DNA of 64,000 nt from an uncultured Pseudomonadales bacterium (lineage in GTDB: Bacteria > Patescibacteriota > Microgenomatia > UBA1400 > PJMF01): positions 85,839-149,838 of the forward strand of contig CAZUHV010000001.1 in assembly GCA_964620965.1 (NCBI GenBank), written 5' to 3'. The position numbers were made by a program, and so were the translations under genes. The notes beneath the pieces were generated by a model that ran no database searches, was not told the DNA's origin, and saw only the letters and a program-made list of their open reading frames with translations. Each line of letters opens with the position of its first letter. The first letter of the stretch is position 1. Of the stretch, positions 3,433 to 41,780 are shown in pieces.

Positions 3433-4749
3433 TTATATTCTACCTAGTTTTTTCCTGTTTTTAAAAAGATCTTTGATATTAGTAAAAAGATATACCATTG
3501 GAATTACCCAAGTCACTAACCTAGATTGCAACTGAATCTCATCAGAATACTCAAAACTATTTTTTAACCAAGGAACATATCTCAAAAGTGAGCTTAATGA
3601 AAAAATGAGAATCGTGTTTCTTAATGTTTTTTGTTTTATAAACGGAACCCAAACCAAAATCCAGAGCAAATACCATGGTAAAAACTGCTGTGATCTATCG
3701 GTAAAAAGTGGAATGAACAAAACTAAAGCTAAAATTGTTGGAATATATTTTTCAAACCAAGAAGATAGTATCAGTAACCCAGATGCTATGAACTGCGAAG
3801 GAATTGGCAATCTAAATCTGGATTTGATTAAATTGGAATACTTTTCCAAGAAAAATACGAGTAAGAAGACAAATATAAATAATGGCACTATTATAACTGT
3901 TGCTAGCTTAATCGAAATAGAAACTGCAAGTAAAACAGAGGCCAAAACAAAATCTCTAAATAACAATGTTTTAGATTTTTTTAAACTTTGAGGCTGTAGT
4001 AATCTAAGAGTAAGACTTACACCTAAAACTGCCGGAGCCATCATCCATAAATCATTGTGATAGTTTGAAACAACCTCTATTAAAAGCAAAGGATTTAAAA
4101 ATACTAGCGCAAGTTCATGTAAATATAATTTTCTTTTATTTAACGTTTGTGAAAGATGTTGTAATGCAAAATATAAAAAGACCAAACTTACTAGCATAAA
4201 AATTCTAAAGAAAAATAATGTTGGAAGCAATTTTTCCATTCCCAAAAAAGAAGGAATTAAGGACAATCCAGTCCATCCATAGCCATATGGAGCAGTTGTA
4301 TGGGTATTGTGCATAAAACGCACCCAATCATCTATTTGAGCAAAATCGAGCGCAGTTTTTATATGAGGGTTGTATCCCCACTTTAAAACCATTCTTGCAT
4401 TAAATACATAGTTAAAAATATCATGAGAAAGCGCGTTATAAGAAACAAATAACGGTAAAATAATCAAACCATAAACACCCGCATAAACAGACTTAAAACT
4501 AAACTCTGTTTTAGGCTGTTTTTTCTGTAATAAATAAATTGCCCAAATATAACAAAAAAATAACGCCACAATCAAGAAAATATATGCTGCTGTAATAAAC
4601 ACTGGAGCATGATAAAACTCTTTCCACATTCTGAGTTGAAAGTTCCAATAAATAGGATTAGAACTCAAAATTAAGTTTGGCTCTGTCAAGATATATGAGA
4701 ACAGACTATATAAAAATAGTGTTATAATAAAAAATATAGATATAAGCAT
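3433..4749 (-). CDS. polytopic membrane protein, putative GT-C glycosyltransferase
   Basis: At least 10 predicted transmembrane helices. Translationally adjacent to glycosyltransferase genes. No specific motif recognised. Confidence 0.35.
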   Translation of the reverse strand: MLISIFFIITLFLYSLFSYILTEPNLILSSNPIYWNFQLRMWKEFYHAPVFITAAYIFLIVALFFCYIWAIYLLQKKQPKTEFSFKSVYAGVYGLIILPLFVSYNALSHDIFNYVFNARMVLKWGYNPHIKTALDFAQIDDWVRFMHNTHTTAPYGYGWTGLSLIPSFLGMEKLLPTLFFFRIFMLVSLVFLYFALQHLSQTLNKRKLYLHELALVFLNPLLLIEVVSNYHNDLWMMAPAVLGVSLTLRLLQPQSLKKSKTLLFRDFVLASVLLAVSISIKLATVIIVPLFIFVFLLVFFLEKYSNLIKSRFRLPIPSQFIASGLLILSSWFEKYIPTILALVLFIPLFTDRSQQFLPWYLLWILVWVPFIKQKTLRNTILIFSLSSLLRYVPWLKNSFEYSDEIQLQSRLVTWVIPMVYLFTNIKDLFKNRKKLGRI

Positions 4750-24893: not shown

Positions 24894-25745
24894 ATGAATA
24901 TAAAAACATTTTTCAACACAATACAACAACCTTTTGTAAATTTTGATTACTATAAAAAGTCGATTCATACTCCAATTTCCCAAGCACTCTTAACTTTTTT
25001 CGGATTTTTATTTTTAATGGCCACAATTTCTGGATTTTATTTCGTAAAGACTCAGTTACCTGGAATGGTGAGCTCTACAGAATCTGTAATTACAGAAGCA
25101 CAAACTCATTACCCAGAAGATTTAGAGATTAAGTGGGATGGGACTGAGTTGGATGCAAATAGAGAAACTTTTGAAATCTATTGGCCAAATAACCTCAATG
25201 AACAAAGCCCAACTATCCCAAAGAAATTAGTACTTTTTAAAAATTCCCAAGAAACTCCAGATGAATTAGGCATTGATACTCACGAATATTTATTTTTTAT
25301 AAATAAATCGAGTATGTACCACGTCTCGGAAGAAGAAAATCAAGTCTGGGTACAACAAAATCTTTCTGAACTTTCGGAAGCTGATATGCCATTTACACTT
25401 ACCAAAGAAGTTGTGAATACTACTGCAGAACAAGTGCTTAATTTAATAGAAACAAAGTACAAAAATATAGAGCTTGGAGCTTTTCTTATTTTGGCACTTC
25501 TATTTGTGAGTAGCAAAATTTGGTTTTTAGCTATCGAAACCTTGTTTGTGATCTTGGTGTTCAAACTATATTCCATTGCAATTTCAACAAAGCAAACACT
25601 TTCATTAACGCTACACGTTATGATTCCAACAGTTGTAGTAAACACAATTGCAGAGTTACTCTATGGAAATATCACAATTCCACTACAAACAATTACCTTT
25701 TGGATTTTGATTATTATAATCAGTTTCCAATTGAAGAAAAAATAA
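24894..25745 (+). CDS. hypothetical membrane protein
   Basis: Several TM helices. Promoter-like TTGTAT-17-TATACT upstream. Confidence 0.4.
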   Translation: MNIKTFFNTIQQPFVNFDYYKKSIHTPISQALLTFFGFLFLMATISGFYFVKTQLPGMVSSTESVITEAQTHYPEDLEIKWDGTELDANRETFEIYWPNNLNEQSPTIPKKLVLFKNSQETPDELGIDTHEYLFFINKSSMYHVSEEENQVWVQQNLSELSEADMPFTLTKEVVNTTAEQVLNLIETKYKNIELGAFLILALLFVSSKIWFLAIETLFVILVFKLYSIAISTKQTLSLTLHVMIPTVVVNTIAELLYGNITIPLQTITFWILIIIISFQLKKK

Positions 25746-25766
25746 TAATTTTGAAAAAAAGGCAGT

Positions 25767-25797
25767 AAAAAGGGGCGTTATTACTAACGCCCCTTTT
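25767..25797. terminator. bidirectional rho-independent terminator
   Basis: Perfect 9-bp stem GGGGCGTTA/TAACGCCCC with a 4-nt loop, flanked by an A-run upstream and a T4 run downstream, between convergent genes. Confidence 0.7.
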
Positions 25798-25842
25798 CAC
25801 ATTATGCTACAAAAATTTTGAAACTAACGGCCGCGCTTAGGA

Positions 25843-26457
25843 TTATCCTTCGTCTTGCATCGTCATCTCTTCGGAGAGCAAAACGGTAGGGTCTTCCTTG
25901 AAAAGGTCTGCGGCGAATTCAGCCTGGACTTTGTCGGCCTCGGCCTGCGCCAGCAATTCTGCCAGATTGGCAACGGCCGTGCCGCGCTCAACGGTTTCAG
26001 CGCCGAGCAGTTTCCGCAGGTCTTCCAACGACATCCCAGTCAGGCCAGTGAGCCAGCCCAAACCAATCTTGAGTTTCTTCAACTCGCGCTGGGTAGAGCG
26101 AAGCTGTTGTTTGGCTTCCTTGAGTTCATCCGCCAGATCAACGTATTCCGGAATGTCTGCCAAAAAGTCCTGGCGGGTGTAGGTACCCTCAGGCAATTTG
26201 CGGCGGCCGCCTTCAACAGGCAGGCTCTCGGCGACATCCAGGAAAAAGTCAATCAAATCGGTCGCAGGCACTTTTTCCTCAATCACTTGGGAAATCTGGG
26301 GCCAAATCTCGCGCAAGGATTCATCATCCAGGCTGGAGAGATAGGTCACAGTGGCGTTGCGGGCCTCATTCGTCGGCAACATCAACAGCGCCCGGCGTTG
26401 AACCGAAAGAAGGATTTCGTCGCGCATATTGCGGGAGGTAGGAGTCTGATCGTTCAT
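25843..26457 (-). CDS. hypothetical acidic coiled-coil protein encoded in a GC-rich foreign island
   Basis: 204-aa ORF with G/C-ending codon usage (CGC, CTG, GCC, GGC), in sharp contrast to all neighbouring genes. The plus-strand ORF 25855..26502 is its mirror-frame shadow. Confidence 0.5.
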   Translation of the reverse strand: MNDQTPTSRNMRDEILLSVQRRALLMLPTNEARNATVTYLSSLDDESLREIWPQISQVIEEKVPATDLIDFFLDVAESLPVEGGRRKLPEGTYTRQDFLADIPEYVDLADELKEAKQQLRSTQRELKKLKIGLGWLTGLTGMSLEDLRKLLGAETVERGTAVANLAELLAQAEADKVQAEFAADLFKEDPTVLLSEEMTMQDEG

Positions 26458-26976
26458 AGTTTTGTTTCACCTTTGAAAAAATTTGTGTTGGCCAGCGCTT
26501 AAGGGCGACTGGCATTAGTAAGATATTTTGGGCCCGGCATGTTTTTCATGGGCCCGAACAGGATTTGCCCGGCTTTGATCAGAAGCCGAATGGCGTTCTG
26601 TGGCCTTTTTCTAGAATTGGCACACAGAAGCAAAGACCAACTATAATAATTAGTCTCTCTTTCTGCGGGCCAATCCCACGAAGCAAATTCAAATATCTTA
26701 CAAATCCAAAAGGTAAAACAAATATGTTTCTTTTGTAGTAATAATGTGAATGTGCAGTTGCTAATTCTCTTTTTTTGCCGCATTGGCATGCAAGTTAATT
26801 AACAACAAGAATGGTATTCTAACATAAAAATCCTATAGTGTCAATAGTTTAAGTTATTAAGATATCAATTGTTAAAAAATTACACATAAAGCCTGGTAGA
26901 AACAGACTTATAACGTTAAAATAAGGAATATATGAAAATTCCCATAACATTAAAATGAAGAATTATTAAGATAAAA

Positions 26977-27360
26977 TTACTTTACTTTAGGGTCTAAACG
27001 AAGCTCTAAATCAACTGGAGGAAATGCCAAATCTTGCTTAGCAGGGTCTGCAATATCCAAAAGTTCTCGTGAATCTTCTATCCTCTGCTGAATCGGACCA
27101 AGTTCATTTGCAACAACTGGATTCGTATCTTCACCTACTTCTTGAGTTGATCCTCTGCCTCTCATTGCCATAACCAAAACTAACAAAAGAATAATAAAGA
27201 TAAAGCCAATAACACCAATTATTATAAAAAGCTTCTTTCTGCTCTTAGGCTTTTGCTCTAAATCTTCCGGCTTATCTTCTCTATATACAGTCTCGTTTTC
27301 AAAGATCGGCTCTTCAAATGAAAACTGTGTTTGGTTGATTGGTATCTCTTGTTCTGCCAT
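26977..27360 (-). CDS. hypothetical single-pass membrane protein
   Basis: One central TM (LFIIIGVIGFIFIILLLVLVMAM). ATG overlap with the upstream gene. Confidence 0.4.
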   Translation of the reverse strand: MAEQEIPINQTQFSFEEPIFENETVYREDKPEDLEQKPKSRKKLFIIIGVIGFIFIILLLVLVMAMRGRGSTQEVGEDTNPVVANELGPIQQRIEDSRELLDIADPAKQDLAFPPVDLELRLDPKVK

Positions 27361-27363
27361 ATG

Positions 27364-28218
27364 TTACAAACTAAGTAGTTCCTCTAAATGATCTAGTGTT
27401 CTAGAAAGGCGAGCATATACTGGGCTCAGGTCTTCTAAAATCCTCTCGTAAAAACCACGTTTAAAACCGTCTCTTCTTGCTACAAGAAAATCTTCATTTA
27501 ACTTTGCTAAGTCTTGATTCGTTACTTTAAAGTCCTTTTCTACCTCTGCGTATGCTCTTTCACGTTTTGCGGTTACAACAGAACTTGCCTCTTCTGAATC
27601 ATGCTCTTTAATAATATCTGCTTCAATAATTTCTGCTTTATCTTGCACTTCTTGAATTTTTCCAATTCTTATTAAAGAAAGAGTTTTATAAACTAAACTC
27701 TCATACTGAATCGCCACTGGCTCAAAATCATCTGCTAGCAAAGCCATAGCTGGTCTATCCTTTGCGACTTGAACATTCTCTTGGTGAATTTTTAAAAGAT
27801 TAATCATTCCAACCAGCTCTGAGTGTGTTTGCTCTTTGATGTCTAGTTCAATACCATTGGTTTCTACAAGAACCGCGTCAATAAGTTCTGCATAGGTAAT
27901 CATGACTCTCAAGCGATCTGCCATTACAGTTCGTGTTGCATTTACTGCTTCCTCTAGCGCTGCCAAAGTCTGAACCTGCTCATGATTAGTTTTTGCAATA
28001 GAAAAATCCTTCTCAGATTTTCTATATACTTCAACTTGGTCACGATACAAAATACGTAGTTGCCTAATCTTTTCTGTTTCTCTTTCTTTAGTGAAAATCT
28101 GTGTCGTTGCCTCTGAGGTTGCTGTCGCTTCTGCTGTTGCAGTTTCTTGTGCAAAAATTGCAGTACCAAAAAAAGAACCTAAAATAACGAGTAGTAAAGC
28201 AATAAATATTTTTTTCAC
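27364..28218 (-). CDS. hypothetical secreted coiled-coil protein
   Basis: Signal peptide followed by a Glu/Lys-rich helical region. Confidence 0.4.
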   Translation of the reverse strand: MKKIFIALLLVILGSFFGTAIFAQETATAEATATSEATTQIFTKERETEKIRQLRILYRDQVEVYRKSEKDFSIAKTNHEQVQTLAALEEAVNATRTVMADRLRVMITYAELIDAVLVETNGIELDIKEQTHSELVGMINLLKIHQENVQVAKDRPAMALLADDFEPVAIQYESLVYKTLSLIRIGKIQEVQDKAEIIEADIIKEHDSEEASSVVTAKRERAYAEVEKDFKVTNQDLAKLNEDFLVARRDGFKRGFYERILEDLSPVYARLSRTLDHLEELLSL

Positions 28219-40262: not shown

Positions 40263-41030
40263 ATGGATACCATAACTCCTAAACAATTAGAAATCCTCAT
40301 ACTAATATATCGTTTCCGTTTCCTTAATCGTCACCAAATCCAAATACTCCTTAATCATAAAGACCCCAAACGAATAAACTCCTGGCTTAAAGATCTCAAT
40401 CAAAAAAATATCCTCGGTAGAATCTACTCAACTAAACTCAAAGAAAATACCAAACCAGCGATATACTACCTAGCTACCAAATCAAGAAAAATACTTCTTG
40501 AACAAGAAAATACTAACGAGAAAATTTTAAGAAGAGCCTACAGGGACAAAAATGCTTCTCAAAAATTAATAAATCACAGCATCTTTCTAGCCAATGTCTA
40601 TTTATTACTTAAAGAACAAGCCCTCAAAAACAAACAAGAACTTCATTTTTATACAAAAACTGATTTAGCAGAACACTACTACCTGCCATATAACCGACCA
40701 GATGTGTATATTTCCCTGAAAGGGAATGACTTAACAAAGCGTTATTTCCTAGAAATCATTGACAAAGGTACACCACGCTTTATGCTTCGAAAGAAAATCT
40801 CTCAATACATTGAGTACTTTGACGAAGGAACCTGGCAAAATAGGACGTTACATGAAAAACCATCACTTTTATTTATCTCTCCAAATCAAAATATCTACAA
40901 CTTCCTCACCAAACATATTGCTCAAGTTTTGGAGGAGGAGACTTCAGACTTACAATTTTTCCTAAGTCTGAAGTCAGAGATACAAGAAGCTGGCTTAACT
41001 GCCAACACTTGGCACCTCATCAGCGAGTAA
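40263..41030 (+). CDS. replication-relaxation family protein (PF13814-like, putative relaxase or mobilisation protein)
   Basis: N-terminal ITPKQLEILILIYRFRFLNRHQIQ winged-helix signature of the Replic_Relax family. Confidence 0.55.
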   Translation: MDTITPKQLEILILIYRFRFLNRHQIQILLNHKDPKRINSWLKDLNQKNILGRIYSTKLKENTKPAIYYLATKSRKILLEQENTNEKILRRAYRDKNASQKLINHSIFLANVYLLLKEQALKNKQELHFYTKTDLAEHYYLPYNRPDVYISLKGNDLTKRYFLEIIDKGTPRFMLRKKISQYIEYFDEGTWQNRTLHEKPSLLFISPNQNIYNFLTKHIAQVLEEETSDLQFFLSLKSEIQEAGLTANTWHLISE

Positions 41031-41780
41031 TACCGCCAGCACTTTTTCAACTGTTCCCATCGCCTTAGTTATGGCAATGAGTGGATCATCTGAATAGTGG
41101 CTAATATAGCTCCAAGCTTTCCCGCTAGAATCTCCCATGCCGTACAAGTCCATCAATACTGCAGATGTAAACTCGGCTACTGTTTCTTGTGTCTTGTTTT
41201 GTCCTTGCTTTAGCTCTCCATCTATTCGCGCGTGTATCGCATGGGCTAATTCATGAAAAAATACTCCTGCATCGTGTGTACCAAGTCTGATTTTGCTACC
41301 ATCAGTTTGACAATCACCAAGCTTATCAGGACTAATAGGTGCATACTCAACATCTATACCAAATTTTTTAGCCACATCTAGCAACGGAGGATATTCTACT
41401 GGCTCGTAGGTTGATACCATTTCATCACCCTCAGTGCATGAAGCTGCAAATACTGGAATAGGAGCAAACCCAACACAAATATTTTTTGTATCCTCTTCGT
41501 TTTCCTGATCAACCTTTGCGAGCTTGGGTCTGAGTATATACACTGCTTTACTACCTTTTTTGACCGTTCTGCCTTCTTTTTGCCACTGTTTATACCCTCG
41601 GCAATCAAGCTCATCTGACTGTAAAAAGGCTAGCACTTTATTTGATAAACTCCACTTATTAACTGGAGCATCACTAGCAACTTGAATGCGAGCTATTCTT
41701 GTCACAGTTGATAAGTCTCCAGTTTGAAATTTTTCTATTACTTTGTTGATGCTTGCCTGTGCTTTTGCTGATAGTTTCAT
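40995..41780 (-). CDS. ArdC-like antirestriction protein (ssDNA-binding ArdC-N plus zincin metalloprotease-like domain)
   Basis: KWSLSNKVL...RGYKQWQKEGRTVKKGSKAVYI matches the ArdC-N pattern. C-terminal HExxH (FHELAHAIH). Confidence 0.55.
   Translation of the reverse strand: MKLSAKAQASINKVIEKFQTGDLSTVTRIARIQVASDAPVNKWSLSNKVLAFLQSDELDCRGYKQWQKEGRTVKKGSKAVYILRPKLAKVDQENEEDTKNICVGFAPIPVFAASCTEGDEMVSTYEPVEYPPLLDVAKKFGIDVEYAPISPDKLGDCQTDGSKIRLGTHDAGVFFHELAHAIHARIDGELKQGQNKTQETVAEFTSAVLMDLYGMGDSSGKAWSYISHYSDDPLIAITKAMGTVEKVLAVLLADEVPSVGS

What the first reader, a model, noticed from the sequence alone, without database searches (positions are those of the whole stretch)
25765..26690. 0.9-kb GC-rich foreign island embedded in AT-rich chromosome
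Seen in sequence: between about 25,765 and 26,690 the base composition jumps to clearly over 50% G+C. The 204-aa minus-strand ORF uses G/C-ending codons (CGC, CTG, GCC, GGC) unlike every other gene here, and is bounded by a GC-rich perfect hairpin terminator. The protein is acidic, coiled-coil, and not recognisable. Inference: recent horizontal acquisition from a high-GC organism, or an assembly chimera. If this is an episymbiotic CPR bacterium, the donor could be its high-GC host, which would be biologically interesting.
Basis: partly seen in the sequence, partly recalled or inferred. Interest (0 to 1): 0.7.

Follow-up and report, generated by a model that had tools for sequence, protein, structure and literature searches.

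The report
Swappable GC-rich orphan gene cassette
The GC-rich patch in this AT-rich ultra-small (CPR) bacterium is not an assembly error or a fresh import from a high-GC host; it is a self-contained gene unit of unknown function, with a strongly folded RNA leader, that exists in very different versions which strains exchange by recombination.

Summary
GC is 0.52-0.56 over about 25,800-26,600 against 0.26-0.41 elsewhere, and the ORF has GC3 0.65 against 0.255±0.047 for 57 other ORFs.

It is not a chimera. Nine contigs from eight sequencing runs carry allele A, and every contig that reaches a junction has the same flanks.

It is an insertion. Seven related Patescibacteria lineages have the two flanking stop codons 0-80 nt apart, against 1,231 nt here.

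It is not a recent import. Searches of 1.84 and 5.8 billion proteins, phages, plasmids and viral contigs found no donor. A second species carries a 24%-identical orthologue at the same site that is also GC3-rich, although synonymous sites are scrambled.

The unit has four parts:
- a near-consensus promoter;
- a roughly 350-nt leader RNA (z = −7.8) with compensatory changes, whose long helix buries the SD and AUG;
- an ORF for an acidic, all-helical, soluble orphan protein under purifying selection (dN/dS 0.12);
- a strong terminator.

One strain with otherwise identical flanks carries a different 193-aa allele (22% identity) swapped in at the ORF boundaries.

The function is unknown. My best guess is a translationally gated conflict or immunity-type protein. 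Why the GC content stays high is unexplained.

The parts
25746..26976 (.). Whole lineage-specific cassette, lying between the stop codons of the convergent genes g283 (24894-25745 +) and g127 (26977-27360 -).
   Evidence: The stop codons are 2 nt apart in L007 and L008, 0-3 nt apart or overlapping in L182, L183 and L184/L185, and about 80 nt apart in L091. A homologous insert of about 1.2 kb sits at the same site in L087.
25765..25800 (.). Bidirectional intrinsic terminator hairpin shared by the cassette ORF and the convergent g283.
   Evidence: 16 pairs with a T-run. L004 has compensatory changes at 25777/8 with 25787/8. L087 has a different stem inside the same flanking sequence.
25801..25842 (-). 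3' UTR, strongly variable between strains.
   Evidence: L004 is 85.6% identical to the window here, while L186 is 100% identical although L186 sits in the L004 background.
25843..26457 (-). ORF allele A: a 204-aa acidic, all-helical, soluble orphan protein with GC3 0.65.
   Evidence: - The SD AGGTGA lies 10 nt upstream of the ATG.
- Within-species dN/dS is 0.12, and most changes fall at codon position 3.
- pI is 4.46, with no TM segment or signal peptide.
- Homologous alleles are B in L186 (193 aa) and C in L087 (171 aa).
26458..26812 (-). Highly structured 5' leader RNA of about 350 nt.
   Evidence: - MFE is -121.8 kcal/mol against -79.7±5.4 for shuffles, z = -7.8. The antisense strand gives -106, z = -3.9.
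- L186's leader has z = -8.0 and L087's has z = -6.8.
- 97.8% of cells are paired, with 6 doubly compensated pairs against 1.9±1.1 in shuffles (0 of 500 reach 6).
- No Rfam family matches.
26705..26726 (-). Anti-SD strand of the long-range helix. It pairs with 26455-26477, which holds the SD AGGUGA and the AUG.
   Evidence: This is a roughly 22-bp helix in the consensus structure. P(unpaired) over SD..AUG is 0.14-0.17 in the window, L004, L005 and L186, against a leader mean of 0.39. It is not conserved in L087 (0.50-0.70).
26757..26806 (-). 5' hairpin P1, the block best conserved between species.
   Evidence: Across species it shows one double compensatory pair (G-C to C-G) and two changes accommodated by G·U pairs.
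26609..26682 (-). Long central hairpin of about 32 bp with many G·U pairs, which makes it strand-specific.
   Evidence: It is conserved in L087 with compensatory changes at its base.
26558..26601 (-). Strain-variable hairpins with an invariant CUGAUCA loop.
   Evidence: The stem changes from GGCUU/AAGCC to GGCAU/AUGUC to AGCC/GGCU. All the within-species double compensations lie here.
26816..26844 (-). Sigma-70-type promoter TTGACA-N17-TAGAAT with an extended -10 TG.
   Evidence: It matches 11 of 12 consensus positions and is the best site in the region. It is conserved in L087 as TTGACA-N17-TAAAAT, and in L004.
26845..26976 (-). AT-rich spacer upstream of the promoter, containing a weak hairpin (26925-26943) that probably terminates g127.
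   Evidence: Read directly from the sequence. The core ATGGG..AT...CC is invariant in the three-way alignment. I did not test this further.
25855..26502 (+). 215-aa antisense ORF. It is not a gene.
   Evidence: There are no family hits. Substitutions would fall at its codon position 1. The frame is closed in L087. It stays open only because the sense strand avoids TTA, CTA and TCA codons.

Best explanation
**Shown by the evidence.**
- The GC-rich segment is the body of an autonomous, single-gene transcription unit (25746-26976). It sits between the convergent 3' ends of two conserved membrane-protein genes, in one small clade of Patescibacteria.
- Read on the minus strand, the unit contains:
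  1. a near-consensus promoter;
  2. a roughly 350-nt leader RNA with an elaborate fold maintained by compensatory changes. In this species the fold buries the Shine-Dalgarno sequence and the AUG in a 22-bp long-range helix;
  3. a 204-codon ORF for a soluble, acidic, all-helical protein of an otherwise unknown family, under purifying selection;
  4. a strong terminator.
- The ORF is one of at least three deeply diverged alleles, 22-30% identical to each other.
- Alleles are exchanged by homologous recombination within the conserved leader and terminator flanks, even between strains whose neighbouring genes are identical.
- All alleles keep GC3 at 0.52-0.65 in genomes whose GC3 is 0.14-0.27.

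**Inferred.**
- The GC richness is a maintained property of the gene, not the fading scar of a recent transfer.
- Translation is normally locked and is released by an unknown trigger that opens the leader.
- Deep alleles, very recent swaps and low diversity within an allele point to frequency-dependent selection.
- The most plausible role is therefore a conflict protein: immunity-like, antitoxin-like, or directed against phage or host.
- The GC-rich body may serve to keep a ribosome-free, stockpiled mRNA compact and resistant to nucleases.
For: **Insertion, not chimera.**

**Coding, on the minus strand.**
- dN/dS is 0.12, and most substitutions fall at codon position 3 (8 of 11 counting each strain's list, 7 of 10 distinct sites).
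- Homologous ORFs sit at the same site in L087 and L186.
- jackhmmer links all three alleles.

**Promoter and terminator.**, with conservation shown.

**Leader structure.**
- z = -7.8, -8.0 and -6.8 in three haplotypes.
- In the window the sense strand folds better than the antisense.
- Covariation within the species and across species.
- RBS occlusion in four haplotypes, including one with a different SD-AUG spacing.

**Allelic swap.**
- L186 is 95.7% and 94.4% identical to the window on either side.
- It is unalignable over 25847-26461.
- L186 is 100% identical to L187 and L188 over M50, RRF and g283, and 100% identical to L004 over g284.
- Despite that, it carries allele B with the window-type 3' UTR.

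**GC is maintained.**
- GC3 is 0.65, 0.62 and 0.52 in alleles A, B and C.
- At 39 identical degenerate residues between A and C, only 14 use the same codon, yet GC3 there is 0.51 and 0.59.
- Neighbours' four-fold sites differ at 52%, against 62% expected at saturation. That leaves about 41% of the ancestral signal per lineage, so a passive relic would have needed an ancestral GC3 above 1.

**Low diversity within an allele.** dS is 0.036 against 0.12-0.27 in the neighbours, Fisher p = 2e-6.

**Soluble cytoplasmic protein.**

**Compact mRNA body.** MFE per nt is -0.26 to -0.32 against -0.186±0.018 for host genes.
Against: - Function is pure inference. There is no domain, fold or neighbour that indicates it, and no partner toxin or nuclease gene lies next to it.
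- RBS occlusion is not predicted in L087 (P(unpaired) 0.50-0.70), so the lock may be specific to this species.
- Allele B is known from a single contig (L186).
- The covariation evidence rests on four within-species sequences and one other species.
- The ORF itself has no evolved structure beyond what its composition gives (z = -1.0), so the stable-mRNA idea follows from GC content alone and is not independent evidence.
- Only allele A went through the exhaustive protein search. Allele C went through the word-indexed search as part of profile A2. Allele B got no large-database search. The family could therefore be wider than it appears.
- The promoter, transcription start and terminator are predictions only.
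Confidence: 0.6

Rival explanations
1. Recent horizontal acquisition of a gene from a high-GC organism, possibly the host of this episymbiont. On this view the high GC is an un-ameliorated donor signature.
For: - The composition is strongly deviant.
- The segment is absent from seven related lineages at the same site.
- It is a self-contained unit.
Against: - No donor turned up in 1.84 billion or 5.8 billion proteins, or in phages, plasmids and viral contigs.
- A GC-rich orthologue sits at the same site in a second species, at 24% identity and with scrambled synonymous sites.
- The promoter and the 5' half of the leader are AT-rich like the host, and are conserved.
- There are no mobility genes, tRNA, target duplications or terminal repeats.
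Confidence: 0.07
2. Repeated import. The alleles come from an unsampled GC-rich mobile gene pool, such as a CPR phage, a plasmid or another bacterium, and are repeatedly recombined into a fixed chromosomal expression slot. GC richness is therefore continually renewed and is not selected in place.
For: - It explains three unrelated-looking GC-rich alleles.
- It explains the precise ORF-boundary replacement and the very recent swap.
- It explains the low dS within allele A across diverged strains.
- Morons show the same 'hotspot with different cargo' behaviour (PMC2920897).
Against: - No member of the family is seen anywhere outside the slot.
- Recombination needs the conserved flanks in the donor, which implies that donors are strains of the same clade.
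- Allele B's flanks are identical to another strain of the same species.
Confidence: 0.2
3. GC-biased gene conversion at a recombination hotspot raised and holds the GC3 of the ORF, with no selection on composition.
For: The locus is demonstrably a recombination mosaic, and recombination would also homogenise allele A among strains. That recombining bacterial genes tend to have higher GC3 is from my own knowledge (Lassalle et al. 2015).
Against: - The effect size is very large: GC3 0.25 raised to 0.65.
- The promoter and 5' leader are equally recombining but stay AT-rich.
- The bias is mainly avoidance of A (0.04-0.09 against 0.43 at four-fold sites), not a symmetric shift from weak to strong bases.
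Confidence: 0.08
4. The region is purely a structured non-coding RNA, as GC-rich spots in AT-rich genomes often are, and the ORF is an accident of GC-rich sequence.
For: The leader really is a structured RNA. Both strands are open across the ORF.
Against: - The substitution pattern is concentrated at codon position 3, and dN/dS is 0.12.
- ORFs with shared protein motifs are kept in three alleles that have no DNA similarity.
- The ORF's RNA has z = -1.0.
- The chance of 204 stop-free codons at this composition is about 3e-4 per frame (my own calculation).
Confidence: 0.03
5. Assembly chimera joining reads from a high-GC organism into an AT-rich contig.
For: There is only the compositional jump itself. 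Some assemblies also break near the cassette: L001 ends at 26546, and the SRR31091725 contigs break at the terminator.
Against: - Independent assemblies from eight runs agree, and two contigs span both junctions at 100% identity.
- A second species has the same architecture in at least 12 contigs.
- The contig breaks are better explained by polymorphism between strains.
Confidence: 0.01

Closest known systems
Phage 'morons': autonomous gene units inserted between two adjacent genes (definition as given in PMC2920897).
   Same: - It is inserted between two adjacent conserved genes and is absent from close relatives.
- It has its own promoter and terminator.
- Its GC content differs from its surroundings.
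- The same site holds different cargo in different genomes.
   Different: - The context is chromosomal housekeeping genes (RRF, M50 protease, SecDF), not a prophage.
- There is no phage relative of any kind.
- The 'different cargo' consists of diverged alleles of one family.
- It has a 350-nt structured leader.
Classical compositional genomic islet from recent HGT, with amelioration (Lawrence and Ochman model; my own knowledge).
   Same: Deviant GC and codon usage, and absence from sister genomes.
   Different: - No donor was found, and there is no mobility machinery.
- The deviation persists in orthologues and alleles whose synonymous sites are saturated, which is the opposite of amelioration.
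mRNAs locked by long-range pairing: hok-type type I toxin mRNAs and the rpoS leader (my own knowledge).
   Same: A long 5' region folds back so that the SD and AUG are buried in a long helix. Transcription is strong but translation is presumably gated. The mRNA is compact.
   Different: - The product is a 171-204-aa soluble acidic protein, not a hydrophobic peptide of under 60 aa.
- No antisense sRNA or trigger has been identified.
- The lock is not predicted in the second species.
Multi-allelic specificity or immunity loci replaced by recombination in conserved flanks, for example pherotype loci, orphan immunity genes of polymorphic toxins and fungal idiomorphs (my own knowledge).
   Same: Deeply diverged alleles at one locus, breakpoints at the gene boundaries, swaps between otherwise identical backgrounds, and small acidic cytoplasmic products like many immunity proteins.
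   Different: There is no cognate toxin, receptor or signal gene nearby. No known immunity or defence family matches (PADLOC, Pfam). Only three alleles are known.
GC-rich structured non-coding RNAs in AT-rich genomes, the basis of GC-based intergenic-region screens for new RNA motifs (my own knowledge).
   Same: The leader is a GC-enriched, highly structured, conserved RNA element in an AT-rich genome with no Rfam family.
   Different: Most of the GC-rich island is a genuine protein-coding sequence, and its GC richness lies in codon third positions.

Membership tests
Phage moron | Inserted between two adjacent genes that are contiguous in related genomes. | tested here: met
   The site is empty in L007, L008, L091, L182, L183 and L184/L185.
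Phage moron | Own promoter and terminator. | tested here: met
   The promoter matches 11 of 12 positions with TG, and the terminator has 16 bp. Both are conserved in L087. These are predictions only.
Phage moron | GC content different from the surrounding genes. | tested here: met
Phage moron | Resides in a phage or prophage genome. | tested here: not met
   The flanks are RRF, M50 protease, SecDF and an NTP-transferase. There are no phage or viral matches.
Recently transferred genomic island | Identifiable homologues in a donor lineage. | tested here: not met
   The caveat is that only allele A was searched exhaustively.
Recently transferred genomic island | Mobility signatures: integrase, tRNA target, direct repeats or terminal inverted repeats. 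| tested here: not met
   There is no tRNA nearby and there are no convincing repeats at the junctions. The unit contains a single ORF.
Recently transferred genomic island | The compositional anomaly decays with age (amelioration). | tested here: not met
   GC3 is 0.52-0.65 in three alleles that are 22-30% identical, with saturated four-fold sites.
Known cis-regulatory RNA or riboswitch (Rfam) | Match to a curated covariance model. | tested here: not met
   There are no hits at gathering score. The permissive scan gave only sub-threshold hits on the terminator hairpin, plus one chance miRNA hit.
Known cis-regulatory RNA or riboswitch (Rfam) | Conserved secondary structure supported by covariation. 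| tested here: met
   The depth is limited: four sequences from this species and one from another.
Known cis-regulatory RNA or riboswitch (Rfam) | An expression platform that occludes the RBS. | tested here: inconclusive
   It is met in four haplotypes of this species (P(unpaired) 0.14-0.17) and not in L087 (0.50-0.70).
Known cis-regulatory RNA or riboswitch (Rfam) | A defined ligand or trigger. | not testable with these tools
   This needs in-line probing or genetics.
Type I toxin-antitoxin (hok-like) | Small hydrophobic toxin peptide. | tested here: not met
   The products are 171-204 aa, GRAVY is -0.22 to -0.38, and the maximum 19-residue hydropathy is 1.46 or less.
Type I toxin-antitoxin (hok-like) | mRNA fold-back that blocks translation. 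| tested here: met
   (thermodynamic prediction).
Type I toxin-antitoxin (hok-like) | Antisense RNA antitoxin. | tested here: inconclusive
   Only weak promoter-like sites (9 of 12) lie on the + strand in the region. There are no expression data.
Polymorphic-toxin immunity or antitoxin protein | An adjacent cognate toxin gene, or membership of a known immunity family. | tested here: not met
   The cassette holds a single gene. There are no PADLOC, Pfam or NCBIfam hits for any allele.
Polymorphic-toxin immunity or antitoxin protein | Small, acidic, cytoplasmic, hypervariable between strains. | tested here: met
Diversity-generating retroelement target | A template repeat (TR) copy of the variable region, and a reverse transcriptase nearby. 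| tested here: not met
   There is no second copy of any part of the cassette in the 64-kb window. Variation is whole-ORF replacement and is not adenine-specific. I did not search specifically for a reverse transcriptase.

The most novel reading that the evidence does not exclude
This is a previously undescribed kind of hypervariable conflict cassette in CPR bacteria. It is strongly transcribed, with translation locked by a new class of roughly 350-nt leader RNA. Its ORF alleles are as old as, or older than, the species split and are swapped between strains. Its GC-rich recoding is itself functional, for example by making a ribosome-free stored mRNA resistant to AU-directed RNases in an AT-rich cell. 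If so, composition here reports selection and not ancestry.
Probability: 0.25. Interest if true: 0.75.

Novelty: new variant of a known kind. Interest (0 to 1): 0.55.

Why it matters
1. It is a clean counter-example to the routine inference that deviant GC means recent HGT or a chimera. Here the anomaly outlives synonymous saturation and is shared by alleles with no DNA similarity. That points to selection on composition, or to an unknown renewal process.
2. It shows strain-level allelic cassette replacement inside a CPR genome of about 0.6 Mb or more. These genomes are usually regarded as streamlined and static. The locus is probably under frequency-dependent selection, so it is a candidate handle on phage, host or competitor conflict in uncultured episymbionts.
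3. It supplies a new, strongly structured leader RNA (z about -8, with covariation) that is not in Rfam and has a testable RBS-lock mechanism.

The limits are that the family is known from only two species and the function is unknown.

Tried and rejected
**Searches that found nothing.**
- Rfam, at gathering score and permissively: nothing credible.
- Pfam, PHROGs, NCBIfam and PADLOC on all three alleles, the antisense ORF and the neighbours: only noise. The best was CopY_TcrY at E = 0.005 for one allele, not shared by the others.
- PDB sequence search with profiles: nothing.
- blastn and tblastn against phages and plasmids: nothing.
- Viral contigs, by protein profiles and by two conserved leader motifs: nothing.
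- Literature: no prior description found.

**Structure prediction.**
- AlphaFold2 gave pLDDT 53 from a single sequence and 60 from the two-species alignment (A2: alleles A and C).
- Foldseek against the PDB and BFVD returned only generic helical bundles, with no hit at E ≤ 0.001 and TM ≤ 0.37.
- The afdb50 library was unavailable.

**Ideas considered and set aside.**
- Target-site duplications or terminal inverted repeats at the cassette ends: none convincing.
- The perfect 15-nt inverted repeat 25693-25707 / 26702-26716: window-wide E = 0.23, not conserved in L087, and one arm is the anti-SD strand. I judged it chance.
- The 96-aa ORF inside the leader (26499-26789 -): rejected, because strain indels are not multiples of three and it is absent from L087.
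- The antisense 215-aa ORF: rejected.
- A specific evolved RNA structure within the ORF: rejected, z = -1.0.
- A DGR: rejected, because there is no template repeat copy.

Full report
**1.
- In 300-nt windows, GC rises from about 0.32 to 0.52-0.56 between 25,800 and 26,600, then falls back to 0.26-0.32.
- In 1-kb bins across the whole window nothing else exceeds 0.41.
- The minus-strand ORF 25843-26457 has GC3 = 0.65. The other 57 ORFs of at least 120 aa average 0.255 ± 0.047, with a maximum of 0.35.
- If the same protein used host codon frequencies its GC3 would be 0.27. Its CAI-like score is 0.39 against 0.69 ± 0.05 for 33 host genes. The anomaly is therefore one of codon choice.
- At four-fold sites the bias is chiefly avoidance of A: 0.04 against 0.44.
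- The hairpin at 25765-25800 is a 16-pair terminator-like structure.
- The protein is acidic (pI 4.46), predicted to be all-helical and soluble.

**2. It is not an assembly artefact.**
- The exact protein is encoded on Logan contigs from SRR10580904, SRR10580905 and SRR10807626 that are 100% identical to the window. Two of them span both junctions.
- Near-identical variants occur in SRR31091725, DRR685533 and SRR29218235, and part of the same allele is present in SRR31091722.

**3. It is an insertion relative to relatives.**
- Anchoring on the adjacent RRF gene and on g283 recovered related Patescibacteria genomes and metagenome contigs.
- In L007, L008, L091, L182, L183 and L184/L185, gene order is identical: g331, g85, NTP-transferase, g284, g127 → ← g283, RRF, M50.
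- In those genomes the convergent g127 and g283 genes end 0-80 nt apart, and their stop codons are 2 nt apart in L007 and L008.
- In the window they are 1,231 nt apart (25746-26976).
- There is no tRNA, integrase, target duplication or terminal repeat.

**4. It is not recent and has no visible donor.**
- An exhaustive phmmer scan of 1.84 billion representatives found only the protein itself.
- Word-indexed searches of 5.8 billion clusters, with the protein and with a two-species profile, found only two clusters.
- Phage, plasmid and viral-contig searches were empty.
- The second cluster belongs to species L087, whose neighbouring proteins are about 70% identical to the window's. It carries a homologous cassette of about 1.2 kb at exactly the same site in at least 12 contigs from many samples.
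- L087's ORF is 24% identical to the window's (pairwise E = 7e-7). Its GC3 is 0.52 against 0.14-0.21 for its neighbours.
- At 39 identical degenerate residues only 14 use the same codon, yet GC3 there is 0.51 and 0.59.
- Neighbours' four-fold sites differ at 52%, against 62% expected at saturation. That leaves about 17% of the ancestral signal overall, or about 41% per lineage. A passively decaying scar would have needed an ancestral GC3 above 1.
- The window is marginally closest to L087, and L007 and L008 are sisters. A single gain in the ancestor of the window species and L087 is the simplest history.

**5. Anatomy of the unit, read on the minus strand.**
- The promoter at 26844→26816 is TTGACA-N17-TAGAAT with an extended -10 TG. 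It matches 11 of 12 positions and is conserved in L087.
- The roughly 350-nt leader (26458-26812) folds at -121.8 kcal/mol against -79.7 ± 5.4 for shuffles (z = -7.8). The antisense strand gives -106 (z = -3.9).
- The leaders of L186 and L087 give z = -8.0 and -6.8.
- The consensus structure has these elements:
  - a 5' hairpin (26757-26806);
  - a roughly 22-bp long-range helix pairing 26705-26726 with the SD and AUG (26455-26477);
  - a second long-range helix (26691-26701 with 26518-26528);
  - a long central hairpin rich in G·U pairs (26609-26682);
  - strain-variable hairpins (26558-26601) whose stems change by double compensation around an invariant CUGAUCA loop.
- On four haplotypes, 97.8% of cells pair. 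Six pairs are doubly compensated against 1.9 ± 1.1 in shuffles (0 of 500 reach 6), and slid controls give 0-2.
- Across species there are six more doubly compensated pairs in the conserved 5' half.
- The probability that SD..AUG is unpaired is 0.14-0.17 in all four haplotypes of this species, against a leader mean of 0.39. In L087 it is 0.50-0.70.
- No Rfam family matches.
- The ORF RNA itself is not specially structured (z = -1.0).

**6. The ORF is a real gene.** Between the window and strain L004, dN/dS is 0.12, and five of the seven changes lie at codon position 3 of the minus frame. The antisense 215-aa ORF is a by-product and is closed in L087.

**7. The locus is multi-allelic and is swapped by recombination.**
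- Contig L186 (SRR28525168) belongs to the same species, with flanks 95.7% and 94.4% identical to the window.
- Homology stops at 25846 and resumes at 26462. In between lies a different 193-aa ORF with GC3 0.62.
- Pairwise comparisons of the three alleles:

| Pair | Identity | BLASTP E |
|---|---|---|
| A (window) vs B (L186) | 22% | 0.09 (not significant) |
| A vs C (L087) | 24% | 7e-7 |
| B vs C | 30% | 2e-8 |

- About 20 positions are invariant across the three alleles, and jackhmmer links all three.
- L186 is 100% identical to L187 and L188 across M50, RRF and g283, and 100% identical to L004 across g284. L004 and L188 carry allele A. L186's 3' UTR and terminator are 100% identical to the window strain and only 85.6% identical to L004. 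The swap is therefore very recent and occurred in an otherwise identical background.
- Allele A is unusually uniform across strains that differ by 4-7% in their flanks: dS is 0.036 against 0.12-0.27, Fisher p = 2e-6.
- Deep alleles, recent exchange and low diversity within an allele together form the pattern expected under frequency-dependent selection.

**8. Interpretation.**
- What is shown:
  - this is a moron-like autonomous cassette (definition in PMC2920897), but chromosomal;
  - it has a novel structured leader and exchangeable alleles of an orphan protein family;
  - its GC richness belongs to the gene family and is not a transfer scar.
- What is inferred:
  - translation is gated by the leader;
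  - the protein is involved in some conflict, of an immunity, antitoxin or anti-phage type;
  - the GC-rich body, at -0.26 to -0.32 kcal/mol/nt against -0.186 ± 0.018 for host genes, might stabilise an untranslated mRNA.
- I cannot distinguish selection on composition from repeated import out of an unsampled GC-rich pool, or from biased gene conversion. I rank them in that order of plausibility given the AT-rich conserved flanks, the A-specific avoidance and the absence of outside homologues.

**9. Caveats.**
- Allele B rests on one contig.
- The comparative RNA evidence is shallow.
- The promoter, terminator and RBS lock are computational predictions.
- Only allele A was searched exhaustively.
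- No function can be read from sequence or fold.

Noticed in passing
window 25693-25707 and 26702-26716: This is a perfect 15-nt inverted repeat bracketing the island. One arm lies in the C-terminal coding region of g283. The other is the anti-SD strand of the leader, so the g283 mRNA carries the same sequence as the anti-SD. The window-wide BLAST E is 0.23 and the repeat is not conserved in L087, so it is probably chance.
   Followed up: partly
L087 3507-3592 (same in L167-L180): In allele C the ATG that aligns with the window's start opens a 27-codon frame ending at UGA 3588-3590. That is one nucleotide before an in-frame AUG (3592) of the main ORF (UGAUAUG). This is either a fixed frameshift or a uORF with termination-reinitiation coupling. 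It is identical in at least 12 independent contigs.
   Followed up: partly
L087 2176-2521 (g284 homologue) compared with L169 and L174: Contigs of the L087 species are otherwise nearly identical, but they differ by about 17% over roughly 350 nt inside the secreted coiled-coil protein gene next to the cassette. This looks like a second recombination mosaic in the neighbourhood.
   Followed up: no
window 24894-25745 (g283), 26977-27360 (g127), 27364-28218 (g284): The three genes around the cassette are membrane or secreted proteins with no Pfam family. They evolve fast: 39-47%, 52-64% and 60-70% identity among the four closest species (g283 falls to 27-31% against L091), against 90% for the NTP-transferase. 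g283 is 92.6% identical between strains at the DNA level, against 96.2% for M50 and RRF.
   Followed up: partly
window 26546 (end of L001); 25747 and about 25770 (ends of the SRR31091725 contigs L004 and L187): Several independent assemblies break inside the leader's GGGCCC hairpin or at the terminator hairpin. That fits strain-level polymorphism at the cassette confusing the assemblers.
   Followed up: no
window 26499-26789 (-): A 96-aa ORF spans almost the whole leader. Strain indels of +2, +5 and -3 nt, and its absence from L087, indicate that it is not coding.
   Followed up: yes
L009 6967-10001 (Patescibacteria UBA1370): In this more distant relative, about 3 kb of unrelated sequence lies between g127 and RRF, and there is no g283 homologue. 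The site may be a general hotspot for variable content.
   Followed up: no
window 40995-41780 (-): This is the second most GC-rich ORF of the window (GC 0.413, GC3 0.31). The deviation is mild and I did not examine it.
   Followed up: no
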